From contig CBFGOU010000001.1 in NCBI GenBank assembly GCA_965650445.1, positions 4,095 to 68,094 of the forward strand: a stretch of DNA of 64,000 nt, given 5' to 3'. Shown one piece after another: positions 17,837 to 63,329 of the stretch; the first letter of the stretch is position 1, and each line of letters opens with the position of its first letter. The notes below the pieces were generated by a model, which was given only the letters and a program-made list of their open reading frames with translations, ran no database searches and was not told the DNA's origin. Origin of the DNA: an uncultured Oxalobacteraceae bacterium. Lineage in GTDB: Bacteria > Pseudomonadota > Gammaproteobacteria > Burkholderiales > Burkholderiaceae_D. Made by a program: the position numbers and the translations under genes.

Positions 17837-18011
17837 CCACAACCGCACGAGTTGCCCTTACAGTCGGCTGAAAGTTCCTCCAACACTGCCATAACCAGCG
17901 CTATATCTATAAAAGTAGAAGTTTATACGTCTAACGTTTGTATTTTTACAAACATTGCTCTATGATGAACATGGGGTTTTCAGCAATGATGCCGTAGAGA
18001 CGGGAGCGGCT

Positions 18012-22908: not shown

Positions 22909-22916
22909 GAACAACG

Positions 22917-24701: not shown

Positions 24702-24719
24702 CCTCAGCATCGGCCAGGC

Positions 24720-39845: not shown

Positions 39846-40975
39846 GTAACTTTGTTGGAAGTAATTTACGACTAATTCGCCTATTTCACGGATTGTCTCT
39901 TGCAGACTTAGGCGAACGAGTTAGTGTGTCTAAACAGTTTTTGAGTAGGATTGAAAACGGTGGCGAGTCAATTGCAGCCTCTTTAGAAGATGCTTTAGTT
40001 GCTGAGTTAAATGTTCTTCCCGATTTCTTTTATCATGTCGATCCGAATCCAATTGCAGACGAACAATGCCATTTTCGTAGGCAACTTACGACTAAGGTAG
40101 TTCTTAAGCAAATCGCCCGTGCTAGGGGAGAAATTTTGAAGCGCCTTGTGGGTGTTCTGGATGAGCATGTTGAGCTTCCAAAGTATCAGGTCGCGGAAGC
40201 GGATCCTACACATGCTGAATCTATTGAACGCGCAGCGGAGAAATTTCGAACAGCATTTGCTCTTGGTCTCGGACCGCTCAGCAATGTAACTCGAATTGCC
40301 GAAAACGCCGGTGCCGCAGTACTGAAAATAAGTGGCCTTGCGAGTGAAATTGATGCAATTTCGTTTGCCACTAAGCGGCCTATCATTGCGTTGAATGATA
40401 CAGGTCGTTCGGTCTGCCGCGAACGATTTGGTGTTGCGCACGAGTTGGGCCATTTCTCGTTGCACATCGGAGTTTTGACTGGGGATAGGTTGACGGAGAC
40501 TCAAGCAAACCACTTCGCTAGCGCGCTGTTAATGCCTAGAACTACATTTGCACGTGAATGCACTCTTGCTATTAGAGGATCTCGTCTCAACTGGACCGGT
40601 CTTTCCGATTTAAAGCTGCGATGGGGTGTTTCTAAGGCGGCTATTCTTTTTAGAGGTAAGCAACTTGGGGTCTTCAGTGATGAGCAAGTAAAAACTGGCT
40701 ATATTGGTTTAAATCGTCACGGTGAAGCTGCTCAAGAGTCTGAGGATAATCTTATGGTAAGCGAAGAACCGGAAGTCATTGTCGACGGCTTAAAAGTGAT
40801 GAGGGATCACTTTGGGATTCCCGCAGCGGCTATAGCGAGAGAGATGCGCGTTCAGCCAAGTCTACTAGAAAGTTTGCTGCCGTTGTCTGTCGCTGCAAGA
40901 ACAGAAAACGTGCTTGAGTTCCGTCGCTCGGCCGTCGTTGGCCGGGAGCGGGAGCTTACAGTGCAGAACATATAA
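39842..40975 (+). CDS. XRE HTH + ImmA/IrrE (M78) metallopeptidase fusion
   Basis: HTH LADLGERVSVSKQFLSRIENG; RERFGVAHELGH (HExxH); ETQANHFASALLMP. Confidence 0.92.
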   Translation: MSNFVGSNLRLIRLFHGLSLADLGERVSVSKQFLSRIENGGESIAASLEDALVAELNVLPDFFYHVDPNPIADEQCHFRRQLTTKVVLKQIARARGEILKRLVGVLDEHVELPKYQVAEADPTHAESIERAAEKFRTAFALGLGPLSNVTRIAENAGAAVLKISGLASEIDAISFATKRPIIALNDTGRSVCRERFGVAHELGHFSLHIGVLTGDRLTETQANHFASALLMPRTTFARECTLAIRGSRLNWTGLSDLKLRWGVSKAAILFRGKQLGVFSDEQVKTGYIGLNRHGEAAQESEDNLMVSEEPEVIVDGLKVMRDHFGIPAAAIAREMRVQPSLLESLLPLSVAARTENVLEFRRSAVVGRERELTVQNI

Positions 40976-42780: not shown

Positions 42781-43509
42781 CTACAGGTCAGCATACCGCG
42801 GCAGTAGATCCTGATCGACCAGGCGCACTTCGATATCGTTGGCGATCTTCACATGTGCCGGGTTCTCAATCGAGAACGGTTCGTCGATGACGCTCACGAC
42901 GATGGTGCCTAGCTGCTGCTTGCTGTCACCCAGAACCGGCATGAGCATGCGCGCCTCTGGCACCAGTTGGGTCGTGAGCACCGTAGGAAGATAGATCATC
43001 CAGCCCACCCCGGGGCGGTCCTTAAAGACCTTCTTTTCAACATACCAATGTGGGCTGAATGTCGCAAATTGCGCAGGCCATAACGTGGCGACCGATCGAA
43101 GCAATGCGGCTCCCTGTTGCCAATTTGAGACCTTCGGCGCATCGGTCATCTGGAACGAGATCGCGTCCGGCCGATTGAGCGTGTTGACCCGCGATGCCAT
43201 GCTGGCGCTGTCCTCGTCGGCCTCTGCGCCGTTCCATAGCGCGATAGATCGGCTATTGGTGGCAAGCTTCGTCTTTTCCCTCACCACTGCCAACGCCGCA
43301 GTGGTCGGTCCGTTGGAATCGAACGCCTCGTACAGGAGTGCATCGGCCTTGCTCTTGCTCGATGATAGGTACCAGCGCTGTAGAAGCGGCGACCATGGAG
43401 CGACCCAGCCGGCCAGCCGATGCAATTCGGTGAATTGAAGCTCGACGGGAATGAGCTGGTCCAGATTCCGGCGGAACTGAACATCAAGGGTGAGTAATTG
43501 TGGCGTCAT
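42781..43509 (-). CDS. Imm52-like immunity protein
   Basis: VFKDRPGVGWMIYLP...ANDIEVRLVDQDLLP; coupled to Tox-REase-5. Confidence 0.85.
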   Translation of the reverse strand: MTPQLLTLDVQFRRNLDQLIPVELQFTELHRLAGWVAPWSPLLQRWYLSSSKSKADALLYEAFDSNGPTTAALAVVREKTKLATNSRSIALWNGAEADEDSASMASRVNTLNRPDAISFQMTDAPKVSNWQQGAALLRSVATLWPAQFATFSPHWYVEKKVFKDRPGVGWMIYLPTVLTTQLVPEARMLMPVLGDSKQQLGTIVVSVIDEPFSIENPAHVKIANDIEVRLVDQDLLPRYADL

Positions 43510-44144
43510 GGTCGGAAGAGTACCTCGATGTCTGGATAAGCTGCTTGAATGATGCCGGAGAAATAGCGGAAGCTGATCGGTTCCATGAAATACCACTTCA
43601 GAACAACGGGCGGCCGCGGACGAGCGACCGCGCCCTGTGCCAGGGCCTCCTCGATCAACTCCTCCTGGCCCTCGCGCCACCACTGTTGTGGTACACCGAA
43701 CCGCGTGAAAAATTGATCGTAGCGCGCCTTCGCTTCTTTTAAAAGACACTCGCTGGAGTCAAAGCCATCAAACTTGATATTCATCCAGTTCCATTCGAGG
43801 ATGAAATTGGGGCCGGACGGCATGCCGCCTATCCGAATCTGATAGTCGACCCACGGCTGGCGGACAGCGAAGTTGCGCTGCCAGAATTCTCCATGATCGG
43901 GCGGGCATTCGTCGCATTTTTTGTCCTTCGTACAGTCCTTCGTCATCGTTTGTGGATTGGCTTTGGCGAGAGGCGACGCCTTCGCCTTTTCCGCCTCTTC
44001 CTGCCTGTGCAAAGCGTCGCTGGCGGAGCCTACGAGGACTGCGGCGCCGACGCCGCCCGCCGTGGCGCCTGCCGCGGGAGCGGCCTGTGTCGCCAAGCGC
44101 CTCACCACATCGAGAAGCTTCGGACTAAGGACTCTGGCCATCAA
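43506..44144 (-). CDS. Tox-REase-5 nuclease toxin
   Basis: CDECPP, YQIRIGG, FDGFDSSECLLKEAKARYDQFF, LKWYFME. Confidence 0.88.
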   Translation of the reverse strand: MMARVLSPKLLDVVRRLATQAAPAAGATAGGVGAAVLVGSASDALHRQEEAEKAKASPLAKANPQTMTKDCTKDKKCDECPPDHGEFWQRNFAVRQPWVDYQIRIGGMPSGPNFILEWNWMNIKFDGFDSSECLLKEAKARYDQFFTRFGVPQQWWREGQEELIEEALAQGAVARPRPPVVLKWYFMEPISFRYFSGIIQAAYPDIEVLFRP

Positions 44145-49694: not shown

Positions 49695-50363
49695 TCGTTA
49701 ATCCTCATTGGTTCTGCAGCCAAATGTTTTGGGCGCCAATATTCACTAGGTAATTTTACATTGAACAAGTCCGAACTTCTTAGAGGTTGCCCAGATCACG
49801 TCGGCGGCGCTCTTGTCATGAACTGGGCTGTGTTGGGGACAGCGCCTATGCCTGTCTCACCACCTTGCACAGTGAGGCTATAAGCTGGGCAAGTTTCCGG
49901 CCCCGCCTGATTTCCAGGTTCTTCGGAGAACGATCGCCGCTGTGTAGGCTTACGTTTGACCTATGGTACGCTGTCTTCTACCTACTAACTAGATTGGCCC
50001 AGCGATAGCTCTCGGCATACCTTTGACATAGGGTCAAACGTGAGAATTGGAATTTGCAAGTCATATCAAGTGGTAATTGACTAGTCGTGCGCGCTTTAGT
50101 GAAGCGGGTGACAATTGGCTTTCATAGTCTGTTGACAAGTACTCCAAGTTGTGGAGTCTACACATGAGAACGCCGATTTGGATGAACCCGGAACTTTGGG
50201 ATGCGTTCTTGGCGGCTTGGACAGACCAAGACGGAAGGATACGGTGCATTGTGCAACGCTGGACCGCATTGGTAAGGTACTTTCGTCCTATACTCTCTTG
50301 GTCTGGGCTCACGGAATGAGCTTGAACAAGCGGTGGCAGGGTTGTCGTACCCAAGGGAGATAA

Positions 50364-51338
50364 ATGGACCGAAGCGAGCGATTGCACAAGATCGATCAAC
50401 TGCTTACTACGCGGCGTGTGGTCTCCATCGCGACCTTCCTGAACCAGCTGGAGGTGTCGCTGGCGACCTTAAAGCGGGATCTACACTACATGAAGAATCG
50501 CTTGAACGCGCCCATCGTCTTCGACCGGGAGGCGGATGGCTATCGCTTTGACGTCCAGGCGCCGATCGGGCCGGCCTATGCTCTGCCGGGGCTATGGTTC
50601 AACGACAGCGAGCTGCACGCACTCCTGGCCATGCAGCAGCTCCTGGACGAGATCGAGCCTGGACTGTTGGGGCCGCACATTGCACCGCTACAGGCCAAGA
50701 TCCAGCGCATCCTGTGCTCGTTGGATGATGCGCCGGACGAGATCGCCAAGCGGGTGCGGATAATCGCGCTCGGCCGGCGTAAGATACATGTGCAGGGATT
50801 TCAATCGATTGCTACGGCGACCGTTCGCCGCAAACGACTCCGAATCATGCATTGGAATCGCGCCAACAATACGCAAACCGAGCGTATCGTCTCGCCGCAG
50901 CAGATCGTCTATTACCGCGATAATTGGTATCTCGATTGCTGGTGCCACTTGCGCAAGGACGTCCGCAGCTTCGGCATTGATGCGATCGAATCGGCGGAAC
51001 TGCTGGCCGAGCCGGCTCGGGAATTGCCGATCGAGGCACTGCGCGACCTACTCAGCAGCGGCTATGGCATCTTCGGTGGCAGCACGGTGCATTGGGCTAG
51101 GTTACGCATCGGCCCGACGCGCGCCCGCTGGGTCGCCCGCACCGTCTGGCACTCCGAACAGAAGGCACTATTCGACGAGGATGGCCATTATCTGCTCGAG
51201 ATTCCTTATACGGACGACCGCGAACTCATCCAGGACATCCTGACCCTGATGCCGGACGTCGAGATTCTCGGCCCAACAGTCCTGCGCGAGCGCGTACGGT
51301 CGATATTGCAGACCAGTCTTAAGTTGATTGATCGGTAG
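50364..51338 (+). CDS. YafY/WYL-domain transcriptional regulator
   Basis: N-terminal wHTH LEVSLATLKRDL; NWYLDCWCHLRKDVRSF; WCX-like C-terminus. Confidence 0.93.
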   Translation: MDRSERLHKIDQLLTTRRVVSIATFLNQLEVSLATLKRDLHYMKNRLNAPIVFDREADGYRFDVQAPIGPAYALPGLWFNDSELHALLAMQQLLDEIEPGLLGPHIAPLQAKIQRILCSLDDAPDEIAKRVRIIALGRRKIHVQGFQSIATATVRRKRLRIMHWNRANNTQTERIVSPQQIVYYRDNWYLDCWCHLRKDVRSFGIDAIESAELLAEPARELPIEALRDLLSSGYGIFGGSTVHWARLRIGPTRARWVARTVWHSEQKALFDEDGHYLLEIPYTDDRELIQDILTLMPDVEILGPTVLRERVRSILQTSLKLIDR

Positions 51339-51638
51339 CGTCCGGGCGAATTGCCGGCAATTGTCTCCGACAATGTCCGCATACATAAAAGGTTTCAGAT
51401 GGCAACTTTATGTGGCGTTAGCGCAGCGCGTCCTGATAAAAAAAGCTTGCAGGTTGCGCAAGGAAGAATCGGTCTTGGCACACGCGACGCTGCCCGCCAA
51501 GTCAGGCAGGACAAGGCATTCTAGCTATGTGTACAAAAAAGTATATATATAGAAAAAGGTATAGATAACCTTAATTCACCTGGTAAGTATGCAAATGTCA
51601 TTTGCGGCAACACCATACAACGGCCGACCATGGTGGGA

Positions 51639-52607
51639 TCAGCGCGCATCCATGGCCTGCGCCAAGATGCCGGCAATCTCGGTGCGCAACCGCGCATCGA
51701 GCATGAACACTTCCTGGAAGATCCGCGCGCGGTTCTTCTTGAGCTGCGCGAACAGCGGCACGGTCGGTATCGCTCCCCACGCCGTCTTGGCTGCCCGCGC
51801 GGCATCGAGATAATCCGATGCGAAGCTTGGAACGAATAGCCGGAGTTCCCGCCCGAGCGCTGCGGCCATGTCATGGCCAATCTGCACGCCCTCCGGATCG
51901 AAATCGCCGAAGTGCAACCATGGAGTTCTGGGTAGCATCCTGAGCAGCGAGACCGCCGCTTCGATATCGGCGCCTGGGGCGTAAATCACGAGCGTGGCAT
52001 GATCGACGGGAAGATCGACGTAGGCTCCGATGTTTTCGCACGTGATCACCAGTTGGGGCATCGTGTGGCACAAGCCCTGGATCTTCATCCAGCCGCGCTC
52101 GGGAATGGCGCACTCGTACGCCCGGCGAGCGCGCTCGCTGAAGTCGACGATAGTGCCATCCTCGTCGAGGCCGGCCAATCCTTCGTTCGGCCGGAATCGC
52201 AGCACCCAATCTTTGGTGAGCACGACAGGAGCGGCCACCTTGGCCAAATGCTTGGGCCCAAGGCCTACTGCGGCATTCCAGTTTCTCCGGTTGATCATCG
52301 CGGCCGTCGCGGAAACCTGCCGGCGCAACATTGGGAGCGCGGCGATATCCGACGGTTCGAATGGCGAACGGTCAAGCCGGCGCAAGAGTGCAAAATCTTG
52401 CTCCCACGTCGGCAGCATCGCGGCCAGCCGCTCCTTCATGCTGGAGAAGGCAGCAGGACGTGCCGCCCAAGTCGATTGCCGGGTAGTTGGCTCGATCCAG
52501 CGAGCCGTGCTCAGACGCTGGATCAAATCACGGTTGCGTACGCCAGCCTTGGCCTCGCGAGTCTCCAACAACCTCGCTAACAGGGAAATTTCAAGGTCAT
52601 CCATCAT
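51639..52607 (-). CDS. jetD: JetD/MksG-like Toprim nuclease (DUF2220-type C-terminus)
   Basis: ITCENIGAY, HFGDFDPEG, QE motif; ATGA overlap with mukB. Confidence 0.8.
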   Translation of the reverse strand: MMDDLEISLLARLLETREAKAGVRNRDLIQRLSTARWIEPTTRQSTWAARPAAFSSMKERLAAMLPTWEQDFALLRRLDRSPFEPSDIAALPMLRRQVSATAAMINRRNWNAAVGLGPKHLAKVAAPVVLTKDWVLRFRPNEGLAGLDEDGTIVDFSERARRAYECAIPERGWMKIQGLCHTMPQLVITCENIGAYVDLPVDHATLVIYAPGADIEAAVSLLRMLPRTPWLHFGDFDPEGVQIGHDMAAALGRELRLFVPSFASDYLDAARAAKTAWGAIPTVPLFAQLKKNRARIFQEVFMLDARLRTEIAGILAQAMDAR

Positions 52608-55600
52608 GCTGTCCCATGGGCGTCCGGGTCAACAACACGCACGGCGCGGATGATCAACCGCTCATCGGGATCGAAGCGCCGCGCGAGCGCATACAGTTGG
52701 CAGCCGTATTTCGGTTCGATCGCCGGCGCGGTGACAAGTAGCTGGAATTTTTCACGCTGGGCAAATTCGACCAGCGATGCCTGGCCGGCGGAATTGAGCC
52801 GGCTGATTTCATCGACGGCAAACAAGGGGCGGATCTGGCTGACCTTCACGCCTTCGCCGCTCGTTTCGCCGCGCGCTGCGAGCGAACGCGTTAGCATGAG
52901 CGCCACAGCTAGGCCGCCGCCGATTGCCTCCGTTCCCGACAAGGATACAGCCGGGTTCCACGATCCGGTGCGTCGCCGCGCCTGGATCACTAAGTCGACA
53001 TAGTTGCGGTAATCCAGCAACTGGTCGCCGTCGAACTTGCCATGGATATTCTGCAGCTCGAAGAATTCGTTCAGGGCTTCCTGAATCGGCCTTTCACCGG
53101 CGAGCAGGGTGGGTTGGTCGGTAAGCTGTTCGAGCAGATCCAGCATGCGCCGGCGTGGAATCAGGGTGATTTGAATTCCGGTGACATTGCCAAATTCGAT
53201 CGATTGGCCGAACTGGCTGAGCTTTTCGAGTTTCGTCTTCTGGCTGCGCACGCTCGTGCTGATGTTTAAGAGCAGATTGCGGGCGTTGATGCGCAATTCA
53301 TTCTCCTGCCTGGCCAGATCGCTGTCGAGCGTAGCGCGTCGAGCCAACGCATGTTCAATCAGATCGTCGTCATCCATGTCGGCCACGTCCGTGCTGACGA
53401 TCTCGCGCACGGCTTTCATCAGCTCAGGCCAAATGCGGACGATGCTGAGCCGGTCCTCTGCATTGACTTCCAGCAGGGACGGCATGCTGGAGACCAGATC
53501 GCCGCCGAGGGCATTCTGCAGCTCCGACATGCGCCTAGCTTGCATGCCAGTGACATTCTTGGGCAGCTCATCGGCCGGATTCGATTCCTGTTCGAAACGG
53601 CCGAGGCTCTCACCCAGAAAGTCGGCGGCCAGAGCGTACTCTTGCCGACAATTCGCCAACACTGCCGAGGCCTTGGCCAGCGCTTCATCGATGTTCTCGA
53701 TATTGTGCGCGATGCGCGACAAAGCGTCTCGCTTATCTCCAACAGTGCGCCGCAGCTCCTTGAGCTGCGCATCGAACGGCGAACCGATTTCGGCGATACG
53801 GTCGGCCAACGCGCCATGGGCCAGTTCGATAGCGGCGTAGTCGGACTGGCATTGCCTCCATCGCTTGCCGGCCTCGTCCGATGCCATGGCAATCGCGGCC
53901 GGATCGCCCCGGTGATCGAGATAGAACCCGATCACGTCCCGGTTGCTCCAGAGTGTTGTGCGTTTGCCTTCGCTCTCGTCGATCGCAAGCAGCGTCGTGC
54001 TGTGCTTTTTCGTTAGCACCTCCAATTGAGTAGCGATGGCGGCTTGCCGCACCTTCCTTGCCTCGTCGCCAAAAGCTGGCACCTTGTCGCGGTTCACGAC
54101 GACATGGCCTTCGGCAAGCTCGGCGATGACCCAGTGGCCGGCCTGTCTTGTCGCCAGCGGCTGTGGAACCGTGTCGCCCAGCCAAAATATGTCGGGAAGG
54201 TCGGTTGACGGTGTCAATCGGGTAATGTCGTCCAATGACACGCCGACTAGGCCGTCAACGAGTCCGCCGAGTGACGCTTCGTACTCGAGCGCTTGCTCAA
54301 GTGGCAAGTGGCGCAACGACTGCTGCAATGTACGTGCGCCCAACTGCGCGGCCAGTTGTTCGGATCCATCCGAGGCACGTCCTGCTGCAAGGCGATTGGC
54401 TTCCGCCTGCAGCTCGCGCATGGCCAGCTCTACCTCCACGGTGCGCGTCTGCAGGCTCCGGATATTGGCCTGGAGCCTTCGCTCCAATCCATCGAAGGAT
54501 TCGCTGACGTGTTTGTCGCAGACGGATTTCCAGAGCTTTTGGCCGGCGTTATAGCGACTCAGCTCGCCAGCCGCATGATCGGCCTTTTTTCTTGCCTCGG
54601 TCGCGGCGGTATACAATTCGGTCTTCTGCCTGCCGAGATCCTTCAGTTCGGCCGAAGCCCGTTTCAACGCATTCGTTTTGGACTCTTCAGTGACCGCGAT
54701 CATGTCTTCTGCCGACGCGACGGACGCTTGGAGTTCCTGGCGCGTCAATTGCCAGTTCGCGTGATCCATCTTCTTCACACGGATGTCCTCCGACGCGACA
54801 TGGGCGTCATGGCGGATGCCGTCGAGCGCAGTACGCACCGCCAGCTTGCCGACGCCATAGGTCGACTGGAGTAACGTTAGCTCGCGCGTGGCGTCCGCCA
54901 CGGCCCGCCGCGTCTTGAGCATTTCGTTCGTGCATTCCTGGAGTCCCTGCACGATATCCCGCAGCTGAGTCGGCGGCGGAAGAAGGTAATCCTTGAGTTT
55001 ATGGATGATTTCCTCGGACAAACCACCGCGAAACGTCGCCTCAAGCAACTTTGCATACAGTCGGCGGTCGGCGAGATCGGTCATCGGGCTGGGCAAGACA
55101 CCAGCCTGGTAGAGCAACTGGCAGTATTCGCCGACGCTGCGGCAACTCAACAGGTCGACCCCGCTCCCGGCAAGGTGCCGTTTGAGCGCCGGCAGGTCAG
55201 GGTAGACGATGGTATCGCCCTCGGTCACACACATCAAATCCTGGATGCCAGCACCTTCGGGCGCATTCCGGATGTGCCAACACTTGAAATGCGCCTTGCC
55301 ATCCTCGGCCTCCACTTGGATGCCGACAATAAGTCGTTCGTCATGGCGAGTGGTGATCTCCAAGATAACGTAGGCGTACCCGTATTGGGGATCGATACGA
55401 CCGAGCAACGTATCGGTGCCCGTCGCTTGACTATCGCGCACGTCCGAGATCGGCTGAATTTCCATGACGCGACGATCCGGCAGCAAGGCATACACCAGCG
55501 TCATAAGCAGCGTGGATTTGCCGGCGCCAGGTCCACCCACCAGTCCCGTCATGAGCCCATGCAAGGTCAGCGATTCGCACCCCATGATGCCGCGCCAGCC

Positions 55601-55639
55601 GATATAGCCGACACGCTCAATTCTCGCTACTGTCGTCAT
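52604..55639 (-). CDS. mukB: MukB-like SMC ATPase (1011 aa)
   Basis: GGPGAGKST, LLDYRNY, LSGTEAIG, VDEISRL, QLLVTAP; coiled coils; start after AAAGGGG. Confidence 0.85.
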   Translation of the reverse strand: MTTVARIERVGYIGWRGIMGCESLTLHGLMTGLVGGPGAGKSTLLMTLVYALLPDRRVMEIQPISDVRDSQATGTDTLLGRIDPQYGYAYVILEITTRHDERLIVGIQVEAEDGKAHFKCWHIRNAPEGAGIQDLMCVTEGDTIVYPDLPALKRHLAGSGVDLLSCRSVGEYCQLLYQAGVLPSPMTDLADRRLYAKLLEATFRGGLSEEIIHKLKDYLLPPPTQLRDIVQGLQECTNEMLKTRRAVADATRELTLLQSTYGVGKLAVRTALDGIRHDAHVASEDIRVKKMDHANWQLTRQELQASVASAEDMIAVTEESKTNALKRASAELKDLGRQKTELYTAATEARKKADHAAGELSRYNAGQKLWKSVCDKHVSESFDGLERRLQANIRSLQTRTVEVELAMRELQAEANRLAAGRASDGSEQLAAQLGARTLQQSLRHLPLEQALEYEASLGGLVDGLVGVSLDDITRLTPSTDLPDIFWLGDTVPQPLATRQAGHWVIAELAEGHVVVNRDKVPAFGDEARKVRQAAIATQLEVLTKKHSTTLLAIDESEGKRTTLWSNRDVIGFYLDHRGDPAAIAMASDEAGKRWRQCQSDYAAIELAHGALADRIAEIGSPFDAQLKELRRTVGDKRDALSRIAHNIENIDEALAKASAVLANCRQEYALAADFLGESLGRFEQESNPADELPKNVTGMQARRMSELQNALGGDLVSSMPSLLEVNAEDRLSIVRIWPELMKAVREIVSTDVADMDDDDLIEHALARRATLDSDLARQENELRINARNLLLNISTSVRSQKTKLEKLSQFGQSIEFGNVTGIQITLIPRRRMLDLLEQLTDQPTLLAGERPIQEALNEFFELQNIHGKFDGDQLLDYRNYVDLVIQARRRTGSWNPAVSLSGTEAIGGGLAVALMLTRSLAARGETSGEGVKVSQIRPLFAVDEISRLNSAGQASLVEFAQREKFQLLVTAPAIEPKYGCQLYALARRFDPDERLIIRAVRVVDPDAHGTA

Positions 55640-56255
55640 CCAGTTCCCCTTTCGTTCCAGTGTTCGAATGCGCATTGACGACGACACCACGTTCGACAAA
55701 CAACTGCAACGCTGCATCCCCTTGTGCGTTTTCGTGGCGTGCGATGTCGGCAAATCGGTGGATCGCCTCAAGTGGCTTGATAGCTGCACCTTTCATTTCG
55801 ATGAACCGCAGGTCCACGAGCAACTTGAGTGCGCGCCGGATTTCCTCGGTAATGGCAGTGTCCGCGGTCGTCTCGGTGCTGCGTGGCGCATAAGTACGGC
55901 GCAACGTCTCGCGTGACACCGACGTTTCGATGTCGCGAAAAAGTTGATTGGTGTTGATGAACCCGGAAGACCGGGTAATCTGCGGATCGCGCGCCTTGAG
56001 CGCAATGACTTCACCAAGGTGGACGCAGGATTTCGGCAAGAGCGTCGTTCGCAAAAGGCTGTCTTTCCCCGTGAGGTAGAAGCACCCGTCAGGATGCTGG
56101 TGCAACCCGCACCCGTAGCCTTCATAGAAGGAAGTCATCTCCCCGAAATGACGGCAGATGTAATCGTAGAAGCCAATGTCTGTGCGATTGATATGGCCGC
56201 CGCGACGCAGCGTGACGTCGATCTCGGCAAACGTTCGTTCATGGAAGATGCTCAC
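55617..56255 (-). CDS. mukE: MukE-like KITE subunit
   Basis: DVTLRRGGHI, FYEGYGCGL...PDGCFYL; GTG overlaps the mukF TGA. Confidence 0.8.
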   Translation of the reverse strand: MSIFHERTFAEIDVTLRRGGHINRTDIGFYDYICRHFGEMTSFYEGYGCGLHQHPDGCFYLTGKDSLLRTTLLPKSCVHLGEVIALKARDPQITRSSGFINTNQLFRDIETSVSRETLRRTYAPRSTETTADTAITEEIRRALKLLVDLRFIEMKGAAIKPLEAIHRFADIARHENAQGDAALQLFVERGVVVNAHSNTGTKGELDDDSSEN

Positions 56256-57577
56256 TTGGTGATCCTCACTTCCTCGATGCTGATGCGATTTGTCACGCGC
56301 TCCCACTGCCGCCTCCGGACGTCCAGAAGGCCGGTCTCGGCCATCAGCTCGATAAGCCAAGGGAAATGCAGCGCCAATGTCATGTCGGCTCCGGTGGCGT
56401 CGTGCGCCTGCTTAAGTAGCCGCGATGCATGAGCCTCTCCGTCCAACAGCGCTTCCATCAGATAGCGACGGAGCAGCTCGGGCAATTTGTCGGGACTGAC
56501 TTCCTCGTATTCACGCTCCTTGCTCAAGAGTTGCCGAGGCAGGCGCGGCGGCTCCCTTGGGGGCGTCTCGCGCATGTCGTCGCGCATCCGGACAAAAGGC
56601 TGCTCTCGGACGATCTCGAGCGTCCATTCCGGCGTCGCCGCGATCGCACGCTTCAAGGCCTCGGTGACGCGGCGATGACGGTCGATACGGATGATCGTTC
56701 GCAGGAAATCGTGGACCACGTTGTGATGCGCGATCCAGTCGGTGGTGCGCGCCGCGGTCCACTGCGCGATTTGCGTTAGCCGGCGCGACAGGTCATCGCA
56801 GACCTGTTCCACGCCGCGCGGATGATAGGGCGCTGCGAGTGTTGCGATCCGTTCGATCAGGGAGAAGGCCCGACTGGTAGACGCGACCACGATCTCCTGC
56901 AGATCGTCGATCGTATGGATCACGAGATCGAGCTTCTCCTCGCACAGGTCGATCGACGCTTCGCTTTCTTCGTTGAGCAACGTCGGGATGAATTCGCGCA
57001 GTGCGGCATGCTGGCGATCCAATTCTTTCTGGTGACGTTGGATTGCAATCAGCATCGCTTTCAAGGCATGCTGCATTTGCAGCACGACATCAAAGTGCCA
57101 GTCGTCGGAATCCACAGCATGCTCGGCAGCTTCGGCAATACGCGCCAGCTGCGTGATGAATGCACGGAAAATCGCGGTCAACGGCTCCCCGGAAAAGACG
57201 GACTGGCTCAAGTGCCAGTCTGCCACGGCATCGCCTAGCGGGGTGATTTGATACTCAGTATCGTCATTGACATCGAGCCGGAGCAAGTCGGCCCGTGTCA
57301 GGCATTCGGCCTCTTCGAGACGATTGAGGATCATTGTAAGACGCCGTTCGGCGCCTTGCGGGTCGCGCGGATCGAGCGCGTCGAGACGGCTCTGCAACGC
57401 CTGGATGGTCGAATGGGGCAGACTCAGCGCGATCTCGCTGCTCGATTCGATTTCATAGCGCATCAGCACAAGAAGGGCGATGTCGCGCGGCGTCAGTTCC
57501 AGCGAACGACCATCCTCGAGTATGGATTGGACAGCGTCAAGAATTTTTGCGCGATCCGGCGGCGGCGTATCGGCCAT
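56252..57577 (-). CDS. mukF: MukF-like kleisin (441 aa)
   Basis: YQITPLG, WHFDV, HNVVHDFLRTIIRIDRHR. Confidence 0.8.
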   Translation of the reverse strand: MADTPPPDRAKILDAVQSILEDGRSLELTPRDIALLVLMRYEIESSSEIALSLPHSTIQALQSRLDALDPRDPQGAERRLTMILNRLEEAECLTRADLLRLDVNDDTEYQITPLGDAVADWHLSQSVFSGEPLTAIFRAFITQLARIAEAAEHAVDSDDWHFDVVLQMQHALKAMLIAIQRHQKELDRQHAALREFIPTLLNEESEASIDLCEEKLDLVIHTIDDLQEIVVASTSRAFSLIERIATLAAPYHPRGVEQVCDDLSRRLTQIAQWTAARTTDWIAHHNVVHDFLRTIIRIDRHRRVTEALKRAIAATPEWTLEIVREQPFVRMRDDMRETPPREPPRLPRQLLSKEREYEEVSPDKLPELLRRYLMEALLDGEAHASRLLKQAHDATGADMTLALHFPWLIELMAETGLLDVRRRQWERVTNRISIEEVRITK

Positions 57578-57578
57578 G

Positions 57579-57875
57579 TCAGATCAGGATTCGGAAGTAA
57601 GCAGGATTCAACTTGTAGTGATACGACAAGTGAACACGGACGCCCCGTTGAAGGAGGCCGATCTTGCACAACCGCTGCATCGCCCGTCCCACGTAAGCCG
57701 CATTCGCGGCCAAGTCAGTAGCGAGCTGAGTCTGCGCAATAATGTCGCCCGCTGGCGGCAGGGCGCCAGCCAGATGCCAGAGCACGCCATGCTCGATCTT
57801 GCTCAACGGATATTGCTTCAGCATTCGCAATCCTCCTGTAGTTACGACCACATTCCGATCCGGCGCTTTTGCCAT
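57579..57875 (-). CDS. small winged-HTH protein (RepL/MarR-like) heading the muk operon
   Basis: QTQLATDL...VGRAMQRLCKIGLL...YKLNPAYF; GAAGGA RBS; stop 1 bp from the mukF ATG. Confidence 0.75.
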   Translation of the reverse strand: MAKAPDRNVVVTTGGLRMLKQYPLSKIEHGVLWHLAGALPPAGDIIAQTQLATDLAANAAYVGRAMQRLCKIGLLQRGVRVHLSYHYKLNPAYFRILI

Positions 57876-57887
57876 ATTTCCTTCTCC

Positions 57888-57931
57888 GTATATGTGCAAA
57901 TAAGTATATATATACTTATTTGCACATATAC
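57888..57931. repeat. perfect 44-bp palindrome without spacer
   Basis: GTATATGTGCAAATAAGTATAT|ATATACTTATTTGCACATATAC. Confidence 0.95.
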
Positions 57932-58445
57932 CCCAAACGCTTTGTCCCGTCTAGGTTTCCGGCTAGCGCGCTTCCTCTTTCATCATGTTGTCACGTGCCA
58001 GGTAGGACGTTTCGAGCTTGGGCAGGTGGAATATCGCGCTATTACCCGCACACGATAGCGCGCATCAGGCTCACCAGATGAGCTTGCAAAAAAATAATGA
58101 TCGGGCCGGAGAAATAGTGTTGCCTACTACGCAATAGATGACTTTGTTAGCCGTCAAATTGCGTGATACCTGCCAAGCTGAGATAAACGCGTGGCTGCGT
58201 CAAACTTCCCCGGCATGGTTGGAGCCTGTCTGCACGAGGTGGCCCCGTTCAACATCTTAAAGGGCGAGCTCTGCACTGTGCGGTTCCTCGCAAGCAACTC
58301 TCGCGAGCGCATCCCGATATTCGAACTTGACGACGGCAACGCGCCTTCCAACGTCGTCCGAACTCCTCCAATGAAGGTTAGTTCGCTGCTGCCACAAGTA
58401 CGTCCTTGCCCTATAATGACTTTCACTCGGTCCCAAGGAGGCATC

Positions 58446-58685
58446 ATGAAACTTAGCGAACGCGGCAATTTCCGAAGGTTTAGTTCTCCGACTATTTTGC
58501 GCGGCGATACACCTTTCATGGGCGCGACTGTGCAGCAGTGGGATGATGTCTTTACCGGTAGCATGAGCAAAACGCTGATCGAAGTTAAAAGGCGCGTCAT
58601 GAGCGGCCCAAGGCGTGACGTCTCCCAAGCCATCACTTCTGACCTAGCCAGTTTCGCTGGCCGTCGTCTTGCTGGACACAAGTGA
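58446..58685 (+). CDS. small hypothetical protein
   Basis: AAGGAGG RBS before ATG 58446. Confidence 0.45.
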   Translation: MKLSERGNFRRFSSPTILRGDTPFMGATVQQWDDVFTGSMSKTLIEVKRRVMSGPRRDVSQAITSDLASFAGRRLAGHK

Positions 58686-59068
58686 TAGCGACCATGGCTT
58701 GCAGCGGCATTTGCCCCATGTAGGCCGCCTCTTCGAAAACCGCCAAGCTCAAACGAATGTTTTACGTTTCTCGAAGTCGAGAATTTGTCGATGGAGAATA
58801 ACTAAGCCCAGCCGCCAGCGCAAGGACCACAACCATTGCAATCGCCGGTCTTGTTGCGTCGCCTGTAAGGATTTCCCCGAAACCGCAACTGGGATCCCAC
58901 GGTGTCGACAGGTCTGGGTTCAGATAATGTAGGCTTGCTAGCGCAACTACAATCCGTCGGCAGGATATCGCGCTGCGACAGTACAAATCCTCGCCTCCCC
59001 TATGCTTTGGCGGGCTTGGTGCTACCAGGTGGGCCAACGTCCCGCCCACTGACGTATGTATGTCCCAA

Positions 59069-59290
59069 TCAATCCGACGCGTGTTTCAACGATTTTCTCA
59101 CCCAGCCCTCCGCTTCTTCGAGATCGATAACGGCATCTTTCCGAGTAAAGTCTATGTGGAAAGATCCGCCGACGAAGTCAGCCGGTTGCACTTTCCACTG
59201 CACACCTGGGATAGCGTTCCACTGTCCAATTAGCTGATGCAGCTCGCTTGCGGTCCCATTAAACGAGACGGATTTCACACGCGTCGCCAT
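59069..59290 (-). CDS. small hypothetical protein
   Basis: AAGGAG RBS, 73 aa. Confidence 0.6.
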   Translation of the reverse strand: MATRVKSVSFNGTASELHQLIGQWNAIPGVQWKVQPADFVGGSFHIDFTRKDAVIDLEEAEGWVRKSLKHASD

Positions 59291-59683
59291 GTTTTCTCCT
59301 TTTTTAGTTCAACCGATATTGCCGTGTTTTCAGTACCTATTGATCAAAGTACGCTGCGCTGCTCAACAGGGACCGGGCAGGATCGCGTCGGCCGTGCTAG
59401 AGGCGCTCCACATGCGGATGTGCGCTGCTTGCTCTGCGATCAGACCGGGCCTTCGGTGCAGGCTTCGCTGGTCCCCCTGAAGCTTCGGAGGTAAAGAAAG
59501 CGCGATTGCCTGCTTTGATCAAGCCGAGATAACGTCCTGAATCAGAGTAGACGTTTTTCCTCACTCCATGCGGCAGGGCGTCCGCTACACAGGAAGGTCG
59601 AGATGAACTTCGTGCTCTCTTCAACCCACGCGGTAGGGGCGTGACAGTGTGGTCATAAATGTCGTGTAGTCCATGGCGTCCGC

Positions 59684-59971
59684 TTAGTTTACTTCAGGAA
59701 AGTCAGTCACTACTCTGCGGCCCAGCCGTGCTTCTACCAAAGCCACAATTGCAGGTTTTGGCAAACCTTCCCAAACCATCAGTTGGACCCCTTCGTCAGT
59801 TTTATCACCGCTTTTTTCGAGCAGGAAGATCTCTCGGTTGTAGTCATGGTGACGCAAAGCATCTGTGGGATAATCGCCGCTCAATTTGAACGACTGTCGA
59901 CCTGACATCACATTCCCTGGCAGATCGAACGTTTCGCCGTCCGCAACTCCACCAATGTGCAAAATGTTCAT
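59684..59971 (-). CDS. small hypothetical protein
   Basis: AGGAG RBS, MNILHIGGVADG, 95 aa. Confidence 0.6.
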   Translation of the reverse strand: MNILHIGGVADGETFDLPGNVMSGRQSFKLSGDYPTDALRHHDYNREIFLLEKSGDKTDEGVQLMVWEGLPKPAIVALVEARLGRRVVTDFPEVN

Positions 59972-60222
59972 TTCTTCTCCTGTTCAGTCGGCACTGCGGC
60001 GATCCTTTAATCCCGCCGACGCGTCTAACACGGCATGGATACTACTGAAACTTTACTTTTGTTCGGAGGCGAGATTTTTTCCCTAGCGAATCTTTATGAA
60101 TTGAACAGCGTTGGCTAGTTACCGCCTGACAGAAATTCATTGTGAAGCGATCGGACCAAGATCAAGCCGTCGCTCTGCATGAAATCAGTGCTACGCCGAT
60201 CAGTGTGCCAGTGCTGGCTAGC

Positions 60223-60371
60223 TTGTTCAAAGTTATATTGTTCACGGTCTCCTGATCCTCGCATGTTTGCGCCGACTATTCAAGTTCTCAATGACAGCTG
60301 TACATCCGTCTGCTATACACAAGTCCTTGATTTTGCATGGCACCTATTCAAGGCTCTTTTGTGACGAAACA
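60223..60371 (-). repeat. distal transposon end with TnsB-binding repeats
   Basis: Minus strand TGTTTCGTC ACAAAAGAGCCTTGAATAG (60362-60344); further copies at 60294-60276 (weaker) and 60241-60223. Confidence 0.8.
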
Positions 60372-60584
60372 TTCGTTGTTCCACCTGGAACTCGCTATGC
60401 AACGCAAGCCTTCGAATACGCAACCAACAAGCTCATTTACCCAACATTTCCAATAGTAAATGTTGCAAATTAAAGATTTCATATTTATAATATTTGTCTT
60501 TAGATAAAGTTTCAATTAATTCCCTCTTGCGTGAAGTGCAATCAGCACGCGGAGTCACCAACCAACCTTCAGATACTGGCCTGA

Positions 60585-63329
60585 ATGCTGATTTCCCCTG
60601 CCCCTCGCTTCCCGCCGTGTGCAATCGAAACGCCGGTGTTGGGTCGGGCTGAGTCTAAGTACGTACACTCGTGGGAACAGGCGTTTGAGTTGGGTCCTGC
60701 AGAGGTCGGAGGCAAGGCATGGAGCATCGCCGCCTTACGCCGTTACGGGTTCTCCACCCCGAACGGATTTGTCATTTCAGCAACCCTGGCTGACGAAGTC
60801 ATCAGTTCCGCGGCGGTATCGCGAGCCATTGGGCAACTCCCCCCGCCGCAGGAGCGAGATGTCGGCAACCAAATCATTCATGAAAAGCTTGCGGCCGTCA
60901 CTGCGGCGATCTGCGCTCATGAGTTGTCGCCAGTGGCACAGTTCGAGATTCAGCGCGCACTTCTGGACAGCTGCCTGGCGGAAACGGCCTGTGTCGTGCG
61001 CTCATCAGGACTCATGGAGGATGGTGCTGCCTTTTCATTCGCCGGCATTCACGAAAGTTATCTCAACGTCAGCGGATGGGAGGACATTGCGAAGGCAGTG
61101 CTCCGCTGTATGGCTTCGCCCTGGCTCGACAAAGCGGTGGCCTATCGCCGGCAATTCAATTTATCAGACGATGGCGCCCGGCTCTGCGTGTTGGTCATGC
61201 CCCTTGTCGACGCCGATGCGGGCGGGGTGGTGTTCTGTGCTTTGCCGGCTACCGGCAGTCGCGACACTGCGGTCATTACCGCCAGCCTGGGCCTTCCGGC
61301 GTCAGTGGTCAATGGTGAATCCCAATGCGACCGCTATGTCGTCGACACCGCTTCCTTGTTCTGCCATTCCCACAGCGCCGATATCGCGCATCAAACTCAT
61401 GCAACCCGTCCGGCGACCGACGGCGGAGTGGAAAACGTTGCGCTGGCATACGGTACGGGCAAGCGGGCAGTACTCTCAAATGCGGAGCGCCTGCGTCTGG
61501 TCGAGCAGTCGCTTCAGATTCAAAGCGCACTGGCAACGGGCGACGATCCTTACGACATTGAGTGGGCAAAAATCGGTGGCAATTTCGTTTTCCTGCAAGC
61601 GCGCCCCATCACGGCCGTCGAGTATGGAACCCGTGTCCCGTCTGGGAAGTTGCCGCCGCTATGGTCGACCGCTAACCTCAAAGATGCATCTCCTGGCGTG
61701 CAGACTCCGCTGGGGAGCGATCTCATGCGGGTTGTCTTGCGCGACATTTTGGTCACGCCATTTCGCCTCGTGGGCTACCGCGCAGCGGCGACGATCTGCT
61801 TTTCGAAACTGTTCTTCGGGCGCCCCTATTTGAACATGGCGGCCTTGCAATGGATCTATTACGACGCCTTCGGCATCCCTCCGCGCGACCTGAACAATGC
61901 GATCGGCGGGTATCAAGGTGAGCTCTTCGATCCGAACAGGATGCTGGTCGGTTTGCGCACCGGCGCGGTGCGTTTTGCCCGTCGTATTGTCCTGATCGCC
62001 GCCGTCATCGGCAGCGCCGTCTATTTTTCGCTTGCCAACAAGTCCATGGCTAGGGCCGCCGCGAAAGCCGGGCAACAAGTGTCGAACACCGTCACTAACG
62101 GGCAGCTGCTTGAATTTATCGGACGGCAAGCAAAATCGATAAAAAGAGCGGGCGCCCTGTTCCAGCTGATGAATTCATTCGCCGGTGCGGCGCACAGTCT
62201 CCTGTTGCTAATGCTGCGGCGCGCCGGGATCGATGCGCCGGACGCGGTGGCGCTACGGCTTATGGCCGGCGCCGGTGGCGTGGCGAGCGCGGTCTATACC
62301 GAGCACCTGTGGGATCTGGCCGAAGTCCTAAAAGGCGATCCCGTGTTATCGCGCGTGGCGACCTCGCCGATCGGCGCAGCGGACTTGCGCCAGATATTAG
62401 CTACCCTCCCTGACGATCATCCATTCCGGCTCCGCTTCTCGGCCTTCCTTGAGGAGTTCGGCCACCGTGGGGTGTATGAGATGGAGATCGCCAATCCGCG
62501 CTGGGCGGAGGATCCGACCTTCCTGCTTGAGAATGTGCTTCTGCTTTCTAAGGAGCAGCGTCTGCGGCAGCCGGCACCGCAAGTCGCGGATCAGGTAATG
62601 ACTGAACTTGGCCTCAACAGCCGCTGCCTGACCGGGCTGGCGTTGAGGCTTCTGGCAGGCTGCGCGCGACACGGCGTGCGCTTGCGCGAGAACGCAAAAT
62701 CCCTGTTGGTAAGGGTTGCCCAGCCAATGCGCATAGGCTTTCTGGAAATTGGCGAACGGCTCGTCAAACAAGGAAAGCTCGATACTGCCGACGACGTGTT
62801 CTATTGCTCCTGGTGGGAGCTGCTCGATGTGCTGCGCGACGGCGGCGACAAGCGCCCGCTCGGTTTGCTGGTCGGCGAACGGAAAACCCGGCGATCAGGG
62901 TGGACTGCCGTCCAGCCGCCGGATCTGCTAGGCGCGGTCGCGCCGCTGACACTTGCCCCTCACGCCACCGCCTCCACCGGCAAGCGCTTCCCGATCAAGG
63001 GTCGCCAACGCAAACTCCAGGGGGTCGGCGTCTCGTTCGGCGTCGTGGAAGGGGTCGCGCGCGTCATCTCGCATCCCGACCAATGCGGCAGGCTCGAAAG
63101 CGGAGAGATCCTGATCGCCGCCACGTCCGATCCTGCCTGGGCTCCGCTGTTTTTCCGTGCCTCTGCAGTCGTTCTGGAAATGGGCGGCCTATTATCCCAT
63201 GGCGCCATTCTGGCGCGCGAACTCGGCATTCCCTCGGTTGCCAATGTGCGCGACCTGCTTGATCACATATCAGACGGCGATCTCATCCGTGTGGATGGCG
63301 AACGCGGCCTAGTGTCAATTTTGTCTTAA
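60585..63329 (+). CDS. PEP-synthase/PPDK-like kinase (ATP-grasp + substrate domain + C-terminal His swivel; rifampin-phosphotransferase architecture)
   Basis: VGGKA, VRSSGLMEDG, SFAG, DIEWA, LQARPIT; C-terminal GGLLSHGAILARELGIP. Confidence 0.88.
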   Translation: MLISPAPRFPPCAIETPVLGRAESKYVHSWEQAFELGPAEVGGKAWSIAALRRYGFSTPNGFVISATLADEVISSAAVSRAIGQLPPPQERDVGNQIIHEKLAAVTAAICAHELSPVAQFEIQRALLDSCLAETACVVRSSGLMEDGAAFSFAGIHESYLNVSGWEDIAKAVLRCMASPWLDKAVAYRRQFNLSDDGARLCVLVMPLVDADAGGVVFCALPATGSRDTAVITASLGLPASVVNGESQCDRYVVDTASLFCHSHSADIAHQTHATRPATDGGVENVALAYGTGKRAVLSNAERLRLVEQSLQIQSALATGDDPYDIEWAKIGGNFVFLQARPITAVEYGTRVPSGKLPPLWSTANLKDASPGVQTPLGSDLMRVVLRDILVTPFRLVGYRAAATICFSKLFFGRPYLNMAALQWIYYDAFGIPPRDLNNAIGGYQGELFDPNRMLVGLRTGAVRFARRIVLIAAVIGSAVYFSLANKSMARAAAKAGQQVSNTVTNGQLLEFIGRQAKSIKRAGALFQLMNSFAGAAHSLLLLMLRRAGIDAPDAVALRLMAGAGGVASAVYTEHLWDLAEVLKGDPVLSRVATSPIGAADLRQILATLPDDHPFRLRFSAFLEEFGHRGVYEMEIANPRWAEDPTFLLENVLLLSKEQRLRQPAPQVADQVMTELGLNSRCLTGLALRLLAGCARHGVRLRENAKSLLVRVAQPMRIGFLEIGERLVKQGKLDTADDVFYCSWWELLDVLRDGGDKRPLGLLVGERKTRRSGWTAVQPPDLLGAVAPLTLAPHATASTGKRFPIKGRQRKLQGVGVSFGVVEGVARVISHPDQCGRLESGEILIAATSDPAWAPLFFRASAVVLEMGGLLSHGAILARELGIPSVANVRDLLDHISDGDLIRVDGERGLVSILS

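What the first reader, a model, noticed from the sequence alone, without database searches (positions are those of the whole stretch)
51639..57875. MukBEF-like condensin fused into a Wadjet layout, with a JetD nuclease and a dedicated wHTH gene
Seen: a five-gene coupled operon, wHTH-mukF-mukE-mukB-jetD. The SMC subunits carry motifs I recognise from enterobacterial MukBEF (DYRNY, LSxxEAIG, QLLxxAP; YxxTPLG; DxxLRxGxHI) rather than generic JetABC, yet MukB is 1011 aa versus 1486 aa in E. coli. Known: housekeeping MukBEF lacks a nuclease and is typical of some gammaproteobacteria, whereas Wadjet JetABCD cleaves circular plasmids. Inference: a mobile, short-armed Muk-type anti-plasmid system bridging Wadjet and MukBEF, with an extra fifth component. 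Muk-like Wadjet relatives may already be classified; I cannot check.
Basis: partly seen in the sequence, partly recalled or inferred. Interest (0 to 1): 0.8.

Follow-up and report, generated by a model that had tools for sequence, protein, structure and literature searches.

The report
Short-armed Muk-type Wadjet nuclease operon
This is a real five-gene operon for a rare, untested relative of the plasmid-cutting Wadjet defence system whose motor proteins resemble E. coli's chromosome organiser MukBEF; it carries its own small DNA-binding protein and rides on a Tn7-like transposon, and two of its relatives already appear in a 2025 supplementary table.

Summary
On the minus strand, 57875-51639, five translationally coupled genes encode:
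- a 98-aa MarR-like winged-helix protein (wHTH);
- a MukF-like kleisin (441 aa);
- a MukE-like KITE protein (212 aa);
- a 1011-aa MukB-like SMC ATPase;
- a 322-aa JetD/MksG-type Toprim nuclease.

The three SMC-complex subunits match only MukB, MukF and MukE among solved structures. PADLOC's Wadjet JetA/B/C models do not detect them. The nuclease has the JetD fold and invariant Toprim acidic residues.

The layout is conserved in about 16 loci from several phyla. The wHTH gene is present in 14 of 15 related loci that include upstream DNA. It is absent from long-armed Muk+JetD relatives and from true MukBEF.

The clade is not wholly new. Bürmann et al. 2025 (Cell, Data S1) list two members as "FEBG" Wadjet-group operons, on a long branch next to the clade that contains MukBEF. 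They do not mention the fifth gene or the short arms.

The host is a Massilia MAG that also has Smc and type I Wadjet genes. The operon is cargo of a ~43-kb Tn7-like element that carries other defence genes.

Most likely function: a loop-extruding anti-plasmid nuclease, with the wHTH acting as autorepressor at the 44-bp palindrome. I class it as a new variant of a known kind, of moderate interest.

The parts
57888..57931 (.). Perfect 44-bp AT-rich palindrome (22-nt arms, no spacer), 12 nt upstream of the wHTH ATG; candidate operator
   Evidence: I4, 100% complementary. Palindromes of 38-58 bp sit at the same position in L003, L006, L007 and L009. An AATATT core lies within 90 bp upstream in 9 of 15 loci, against 12.6% of low-GC background windows.
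57579..57875 (-). 98-aa MarR-like winged-helix protein, first gene of the operon
   Evidence: AF2 model with pLDDT 91.7. Foldseek top hits are the MarR, MepR and HpaR DNA-binding cores. 15 of 19 family members give weak MarR_2 matches. A family HMM finds it in 14 of 15 short-family loci and in no long-arm or MukBEF locus.
56252..57577 (-). MukF-like kleisin, 441 aa
   Evidence: Pfam MukF_M, 6.7e-13. NCBIfam MukF equivalog scores 123 bits, below its 407-bit cut-off. Only MukF chains match in the PDB, at E 3.7e-26. The YQITPLG motif is present.
55617..56255 (-). MukE-like KITE subunit, 212 aa, GTG start
   Evidence: Pfam MksE 1.3e-20 and MukE 3.4e-13. Only MukE chains match significantly in the PDB (E 1e-9 to 5e-8; the only other rows are MPT synthase at E 0.5-0.8). 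The DVTLRRGGHI motif is shared with E. coli MukE.
52604..55639 (-). Short-armed MukB-like SMC ATPase, 1011 aa. Walker A at 35-43, signature LSGTE at 900, Walker B ...FAVDE at 944, MukB-type hinge at about 402-549
   Evidence: Pfam MukB_N and MukB_hinge. Only MukB chains match significantly in the PDB (E 1e-40 to 3e-20; other rows are chance-level, E >= 0.2), and no JetC. No PADLOC JetC hit. ATPase motif residues are invariant across 31 homologues. Relative to E. coli MukB, the missing residues all lie in the coiled-coil arms.
51639..52607 (-). JetD/MksG-type Toprim nuclease, 322 aa. N-terminal winged helix (1-66), CAP-like linker, Toprim domain (132-317)
   Evidence: Pfam JetD_C, 1.6e-6. AF2 model with pLDDT 96. 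Best fold matches are MksG 8b7f (Z 13.6), JetD 7til (Z 12.4) and Topo VI-A (Z 13.8). E191, N192, D235, D237 and E299 are invariant in 42 sequences.
51519..51551 (.). Half-operator-like copy 3' of jetD: 82% identical over 33 nt to 57882-57914, and also part of a 64-nt, 72% inverted pair flanking the cassette
   Evidence: D3, I1. It was not found in the 3' flanks of 13 relatives. Its meaning is unknown.
51446..51462 (-). Terminator-like hairpin followed by a T-run, about 180 nt after the jetD stop
   Evidence: This is a consensus scan only.

Best explanation
The operon encodes a Muk-clade member of the Wadjet/MksBEFG group, an accessory DNA-restriction system rather than a housekeeping condensin.

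Proposed mechanism, inferred from type I and II Wadjet:
1. A MukF-bridged dimer of MukB2-MukE2 motors loads on DNA and extrudes loops using ATP.
2. On a small closed circle, extrusion runs to completion and the complex stalls.
3. The stalled complex licenses the kleisin-associated JetD-type Toprim dimer to cut the DNA.

The arms are roughly 180-190 residues per helix, or about 27 nm. That is close to type I JetC and less than half the length of MukB.

The small MarR-like winged-helix protein most likely represses the operon by binding the palindrome that overlaps the promoter region. This would keep a potentially self-damaging nuclease at low level.

The cassette travels as cargo of a Tn7-like transposon, alongside other defence genes.
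For: Shown here:
- Gene order and coupling.
- Muk-type identity of the three core subunits. The only significant matches to solved structures are MukB, MukF and MukE, and no JetA/B/C appears. An exhaustive phmmer search of 1.84 billion representatives finds about 35 family representatives of ~1000 aa, then only ~1450-1530-aa MukB-length proteins, 340 hits in all.
- In my tree the short family is monophyletic (99*) and sister to the clade that holds E. coli MukB.
- ATPase motifs are intact and invariant.
- The nuclease has the JetD/MksG fold and invariant Toprim E, DxD and E residues. No invariant Tyr is present of the kind a Topo VI-A/Spo11-type enzyme needs.
- The nuclease aligns over most of its length (266 of 322 residues) with the MksG of a long-arm Muk system (29% identity, E 3e-31), but only in the Toprim core with type I JetD.

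Accessory and defence context:
- The genome also has an Smc hinge and two type I JetB genes.
- The system is found in 1 of 36 same-genus genomes.
- Its hosts span Beta- and Gammaproteobacteria, Nitrospirota, Spirochaetota and Gemmatimonadota, and the tree is incongruent with taxonomy.
- Neighbours include Rosmer RmrT/RmrA and a WYL regulator.
- It lies between Tn7-like ends with a 5-bp target duplication.

wHTH as regulator:
- MarR-like fold.
- First gene in 13 of 14 loci.
- Long palindromes 12-17 nt upstream of its start in several loci, and an enriched AATATT core.
Against: - No member of the Muk clade that carries a nuclease has been tested, so plasmid restriction is inferred from types I and II only.
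- PADLOC Wadjet models do not recognise the core subunits. The JetD N-terminal region differs from canonical DUF3322, so coupling between motor and nuclease may differ.
- The consensus scan found no sigma-70 promoter at the palindrome.
- The wHTH is translationally coupled to mukF and is strictly tied to the short-arm lineage. That would also fit a stoichiometric subunit.
- In L014 the wHTH gene lies after jetD.
Confidence: 0.7

Rival explanations
1. The winged-helix protein is a true fifth subunit or targeting factor. In this reading it would be a site-specific DNA binder that recruits, loads or blocks the short-armed Muk-JetD complex, for example by marking self DNA or a loading site. It would then be more than a transcription factor.
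For: - It co-occurs strictly with the short-arm lineage and is absent from long-arm Muk+JetD and MukBEF loci.
- Its stop is tightly coupled to the mukF start in nearly all loci.
- A half-site-like copy also lies at the 3' end of the cassette in the window.
- In L014 the gene sits at the 3' end of the operon.
Against: - The fold is a plain MarR-type DNA-binding core.
- The palindromes sit exactly where an autorepressor's operator would be.
- L002 keeps intact F, E, B and D genes but only a remnant of the wHTH.
- The 3' repeat is not conserved in relatives.
Confidence: 0.18
2. The complex is a chromosome- or replicon-organising condensin like MukBEF or MksBEF. Its Toprim partner would work as a topoisomerase-like or resolution factor, not as a defence nuclease.
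For: - The core subunits are Muk-type.
- MukB is known to work with a topoisomerase, Topo IV, and JetD shares the Topo VI-A fold (established knowledge cited in PMC10123090).
Against: - The genome has Smc.
- The system is found in 1 of 36 congeners, sits in a transposon-borne defence island and is horizontally scattered.
- There is no conserved catalytic Tyr for a covalent topoisomerase mechanism.
- NCBIfam MukB/F/E equivalog cut-offs are missed by a wide margin.
Confidence: 0.07
3. It is a defence system aimed mainly at phages or other invading DNA, or one that acts by abortive self-cleavage, rather than a sensor of plasmid circularity.
For: It sits among anti-phage genes (Rosmer; earlier notes of an Avs-like and an RloC-like gene). 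No experimental data exist for this clade.
Against: All characterised Wadjet systems act on circular plasmids, with little or no anti-phage effect (PMC10586767; 10.1101/2025.03.10.642339). The subunit set is the same here.
Confidence: 0.05

Closest known systems
Short 'FEBG' operons in Bürmann et al. 2025, Cell, Data S1: Nitrosomonadales MAG JACPEI010000091.1 (cluster 94) and Azonexus fungiphilus JAANMQ010000003.1 (cluster 288)
   Same: They belong to the same family. The Nitrosomonadales locus is my L004, with MksB of 1011 aa (46% identical to the window's) and MksG of 315 aa. In their head-plus-hinge tree the pair is sister (support 84) to the clade that contains E. coli MukB.
   Different: They are only listed, not described or tested. 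The operon model used there has four genes, so the wHTH gene, the operator and the short arms go unmentioned.
Long-armed Muk-type MksBEFG operons: Massilia sp. PAMC28688, Sorangium cellulosum So ce56, Bradymonas, Salmonella Paratyphi B SPB7, Vibrio natriegens, Burkholderia pyrrocinia pBPJTT, and a Geobacteraceae MAG (L025)
   Same: MukF/E/B-type core plus a ~320-335-aa JetD of the same subtype (29% identity over 266 residues to the Massilia one), in FEBG order.
   Different: MukB is ~1470-1530 aa with full-length arms. No wHTH gene was found. Two of the three loci examined have a WYL regulator nearby instead.
E. coli MukBEF
   Same: Homologous head, hinge, kleisin and KITE, with shared signature motifs. 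Heads are about 27-30% identical.
   Different: MukBEF has no nuclease, a 1486-aa MukB with an elbowed ~58-nm arm, and is the sole essential condensin of its hosts. Here the arm is less than half that length, a nuclease and a wHTH are present, and Smc coexists in the genome.
Type I Wadjet JetABCD / MksBEFG / EptABCD (E. coli GF4-3, P. aeruginosa PA14, C. glutamicum)
   Same: Same four-part logic (kleisin, KITE, SMC, Toprim nuclease) in the same gene order. Arm length is similar: about 27 nm estimated here, against 29.5 nm reported for E. coli JetC (10.1101/2025.03.10.642339).
   Different: JetA, JetB and JetC sequences are not detectably related by phmmer or PADLOC HMMs. A type I system from the same genus scores 1607 and 480 bits as a control. 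Type I JetD is ~400 aa with a DUF3322 N-domain, whereas this one is 322 aa with a different N-terminal region.

Membership tests
Wadjet / MksBEFG group (broad sense, as in Bürmann 2025) | Co-directional kleisin, KITE and SMC-ATPase genes of the Muk/Mks lineage | tested here: met
   Two family members are listed in the published Wadjet-group table.
Wadjet / MksBEFG group (broad sense, as in Bürmann 2025) | Adjacent JetD/MksG Toprim nuclease with catalytic acidic residues | tested here: met
   Pfam JetD_C. Fold matches to MksG and JetD at Z 12-14. E191, D235, D237 and E299 are invariant.
Wadjet / MksBEFG group (broad sense, as in Bürmann 2025) | Restriction or cleavage of circular plasmid DNA | not testable with these tools
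   Needs transformation and in vitro cleavage assays.
Wadjet types I, II and III (as defined by PADLOC-DB v2 models) | JetA, JetB and JetC recognised by the type-specific HMMs | tested here: not met
   No JetA or JetC hit. JetB2 hits only at E 0.0029 over 50 residues. JetD1 reaches 2e-6 at best. The positive control, a type I system from the same genus, scores 1607 and 480 bits. DefenseFinder was not available.
MukBEF housekeeping condensin | Scores above the NCBIfam MukB, MukF and MukE equivalog cut-offs | tested here: not met
   283 against 699 bits, 123 against 407 bits, and 50.8 against 250 bits.
MukBEF housekeeping condensin | MukB of about 1480 aa with long elbowed arms | tested here: not met
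   MukB here is 1011 aa. About 210 and 200 residues are missing from the N- and C-terminal arm helices relative to E. coli MukB.
MukBEF housekeeping condensin | No nuclease partner, and replacement of Smc-ScpAB in the genome | tested here: not met
   jetD is coupled by an ATGA overlap. An Smc hinge is present in the same MAG.
MarR-family transcription factors (for the 98-aa protein) | Winged-helix DNA-binding core | tested here: met
   AF2 pLDDT 91.7. Foldseek top hits are MarR, MepR and HpaR at probability 1.0.
MarR-family transcription factors (for the 98-aa protein) | N- and C-terminal dimerisation helices (about 140 aa in all), and a Pfam score above gathering | tested here: not met
   The protein is only 98 aa. 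The window protein has no Pfam hit at E <= 0.01, and relatives score below the cut-off. It should be called MarR-like, not a MarR member.

The most novel reading that the evidence does not exclude
The winged-helix protein is a working fifth subunit. It would give a short-armed Muk-type SMC nuclease sequence-specific loading, self-marking or licensing at palindromic sites. That would make this the first SMC restriction complex with a dedicated site-specific DNA-binding partner, and a living intermediate for testing how MukBEF was domesticated from a defence system.
Probability: 0.15. Interest if true: 0.75.

Novelty: new variant of a known kind. Interest (0 to 1): 0.5.

Why it matters
MukBEF is widely suspected to be a domesticated Wadjet-type defence complex. 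Nuclease-bearing systems whose subunits are recognisably Muk-type are the closest material available for testing that idea at the bench.

This lineage is compact: 1011-aa SMC, 322-aa nuclease, 6.3 kb in total. It occurs in cultured strains (Thiobacillus denitrificans DSM 12475, Rhodoferax sp. U11-2br, Roseateles paludis, Azonexus fungiphilus). PADLOC's Wadjet models miss it, and PGAP labels its long-armed relatives as 'chromosome partition protein MukB/MukE'. Defence censuses may therefore undercount it, and genome annotation may mislabel it as housekeeping.

The conserved regulator-plus-palindrome module also gives a handle on how a self-dangerous SMC nuclease is kept in check.

Tried and rejected
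Their nuclease status is known only for loci held as DNA.
- Petrushenko 2011 (PMC3179180) is not held.
- Searches for the wHTH upstream of long-arm systems gave nothing: hhalign on candidate small ORFs and the HMM over six-frame translations.
- The word-indexed homologue search for the wHTH returned only 5 proteins, so I built its alignment from loci instead.
- No member of the short family was found in PLSDB plasmids. Hits there were only MukB on chromosomal or megaplasmid records.
- No Rfam family was found in 50000-60600.
- The consensus promoter scan found nothing at the palindrome.
- The 3' half-operator copy is not conserved in relatives.
- Polarity of the arm change is not resolved. My FastTree puts the short family as sister to all long forms. 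The published tree nests it among them at support 84. I did not run a slower IQ-TREE analysis.
- Considered and rejected: a Topo VI-A/Spo11-like topoisomerase reading of the JetD-like protein. There is no invariant Tyr in the CAP-like region.


Full report
**Anatomy**

ORF listing and direct reading of the minus strand show five tightly coupled genes.
- A 98-aa gene, 57875-57579.
- A 441-aa gene, 57577-56252, starting 1 nt after the previous stop.
- A 212-aa gene, 56255-55617, with a GTG start in a GTGA overlap.
- A 1011-aa gene, 55639-52604.
- A 322-aa gene, 52607-51639, in an ATGA overlap.

A perfect 44-bp palindrome (57888-57931) lies 12 nt upstream of the first ATG. A terminator-like hairpin follows the last gene.

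**Identity of the core subunits**

Pfam gives MukF_M, MksE/MukE, and MukB_N plus MukB_hinge. NCBIfam's MukF, MukE and MukB equivalogs match, but far below their cut-offs.

Against all PDB sequences, the three proteins match only MukB (E 1e-40), MukF (4e-26) and MukE (1e-9) with significance. They hit none of the solved JetA, JetB or JetC chains, even at E <= 1.

PADLOC's Wadjet JetA/B/C models do not hit them. A canonical type I system from the same genus scores 1607 bits (JetC) and 480 bits (JetD) as a control.

Walker A, the signature motif and Walker B are invariant across 31 homologues.

**Arms**

Domain boundaries, with Pfam coordinates shifted by 50 residues, come. They leave about 180 and 190 residues for the two arm helices. 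All large gaps relative to E. coli MukB fall in the coiled coil.

At about 1.5 Å per residue this gives roughly 27 nm. This is a rough inference. A preprint reports 29.5 nm for E. coli JetC, 41 nm for N. vireti JetC and 58 nm for MukB (10.1101/2025.03.10.642339).

**Nuclease**

The last gene matches Pfam JetD_C weakly and has no sequence hit in the PDB. An AF2 model built on 42 homologues is confident, with pLDDT 96.
- Its best structural matches are C. glutamicum MksG (Z 13.6), P. aeruginosa JetD (Z 12.4) and Topo VI-A/Spo11 (Z up to 13.8).
- E191-N192 (TCEN), D235xD237 and E299 are invariant. No Tyr is invariant in the CAP-like part. This fits a hydrolytic JetD-type nuclease rather than a topoisomerase.
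- It aligns over 266 residues with the MksG of a long-armed Muk system (29% identity, E 3e-31), but only in the Toprim core with type I JetD. The nuclease has therefore co-diverged with the Muk-type motor.

**Family and phylogeny**
- The word-indexed search found 82 clusters of ~1000-1030-aa relatives.
- An exhaustive phmmer search over 1.84 billion representatives found 340 hits in all. About 35 were family representatives, followed only by proteins of MukB length.
- Genome scans returned about 17 loci with the same layout. Hosts include Gallionellaceae, Nitrosomonadales, Rhodocyclaceae, Thiobacillus denitrificans DSM 12475, Rhodoferax, Roseateles, Pseudomonas, Methyloglobulus, an Enterobacteriaceae MAG, Thermodesulfovibrio, Spirochaetia and Gemmatimonadaceae.
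- In my FastTree, with type I JetC as outgroup, the short family is monophyletic (99*). It is sister to the clade holding E. coli and Psittacicella MukB and two long-armed nuclease-bearing systems.

**Prior knowledge**

Bürmann et al. 2025 (PMC7617805) built a Wadjet-group operon table and tree.
- Their table contains my locus L004 (Nitrosomonadales MAG; MksB 1011 aa, MksG 315 aa) and an Azonexus fungiphilus operon.
- In their tree file these two sit on a long branch. They are sister (support 84) to long-armed FEBG operons (Bradymonas, Sorangium, Massilia PAMC28688, Sulfurifustis, Plasticicumulans) plus nuclease-less E. coli and Endozoicomonas MukBEF.
- Salmonella Paratyphi B, Shewanella and Vibrio natriegens FEBG operons branch next outside.
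- The main text says only that MukBEF, like several other members, lacks MksG.
- Reviews already propose that MukBEF derives from Wadjet.

The evolutionary 'bridge' is therefore published in data form. The fifth gene and the short arms are not discussed in the passages I read.

**The fifth gene**
- Its AF2 model (pLDDT 91.7) is a winged helix whose best matches are MarR, MepR and HpaR DNA-binding cores.
- 15 of 19 relatives give sub-threshold MarR_2 hits.
- An HMM finds it in 14 of 15 short-family loci that include upstream DNA. It is first in the operon in 13 and after jetD in L014. L002 keeps only a remnant. It is not found in three long-armed Muk+JetD loci or in MukBEF loci.
- Palindromes of 38-58 bp lie 12-17 nt upstream of its start in L003, L006, L007 and L009, as in the window.
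- An AATATT core occurs within 90 bp upstream in 9 of 15 loci, against 2.5% of all windows and 12.6% of low-GC windows.

I read it as an autorepressor. Its tight coupling to mukF, and a half-site-like copy at the 3' end of the window's cassette (not conserved), keep a subunit or targeting role open.

**Context**

This identifies the genus as Massilia.
- The MAG also has an Smc hinge and two type I JetB genes.
- The short system is found in 1 of 36 same-genus genomes.
- Neighbours include Rosmer RmrT/RmrA and a WYL regulator.
- TnsA-, TnsB- and TnsC-like genes and two TniQ genes lie at 17955-25919.
- The termini are TGTTCCGTCC, starting at 17192, and its imperfect inverse, ending at 60371. They are flanked by a TTCGT duplication and share a 16-nt internal motif in inverted orientation.

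The operon is thus cargo of a ~43-kb Tn7-like element.

**Verdict**

This is a rare, uncharacterised, short-armed Muk-type branch of the Wadjet group with a lineage-specific regulator module. Function and mechanism are inferred from types I and II and remain untested.

Noticed in passing
window 17187-17201 and 60342-60376: Both ends of a ~43-kb Tn7-like element. The left terminus TGTTCCGTCC starts at 17192 and the right terminus ends ...GACGAAACA at 60371. A 5-bp TTCGT duplication flanks them, and a shared 16-nt motif AGAGCCTTGAATRGGT lies in inverted orientation. tnsA/B/C-like genes and two tniQ genes lie at 17955-25919. The whole cargo is a defence island.
   Followed up: partly
window 39246-40975: A Rosmer defence pair: RmrT (PADLOC 4.8e-36) and RmrA (2.7e-119).
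   Followed up: partly
window 50364-51338 (+); L025:5047-5937; L040:1408-2349: An HTH-WYL-WCX regulator lies convergent to jetD in the window. WYL proteins also sit beside two long-armed Muk+JetD systems, which lack the small wHTH. This may be an alternative regulator for the same kind of system.
   Followed up: no
window 51519-51551 vs 57882-57914: The cassette is flanked by related AT-rich sequence: 82% direct identity over 33 nt, or a 64-nt inverted pair at 72%. This is not seen in relatives. It could be a second operator, an insertion scar or chance.
   Followed up: partly
G000 contigs C298:319-798 and C553:1229-1705: The same MAG carries two DUF4194 (type I JetB/MksE) genes. One genome may therefore hold up to three Wadjet-group systems. 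20 of 35 congeners have DUF4194.
   Followed up: no
L040 (Burkholderia pyrrocinia pBPJTT, 76461-83855): A long-armed Muk+DUF2220 nuclease system sits on an 880-kb megaplasmid, next to SAVED, WYL and nucleotidyltransferase genes. PGAP annotates it as 'chromosome partition protein MukE/MukB', which is a likely systematic mis-annotation of defence systems.
   Followed up: no
L002:5874-6047: In a Gallionella MAG the wHTH gene has decayed to a C-terminal remnant (…HYKLNSGYFRII) while F, E, B and D remain intact.
   Followed up: partly
L014:5073-8065 and 9114-9392: In a Methyloglobulus MAG the wHTH gene lies after jetD, and the mukB-like gene is split into two frames (frameshift or assembly error).
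   Followed up: no
P0247 (1013 aa) in the tree: A second ~1000-aa MukB-like protein nests inside the long-armed clade. This hints at an independent arm shortening, or at a truncated gene call.
   Followed up: no
window 42781-43749 (-): An Imm52 immunity-protein domain gene lies among ORFs with no Pfam family. It may be a polymorphic-toxin immunity cassette within the same cargo.
   Followed up: no
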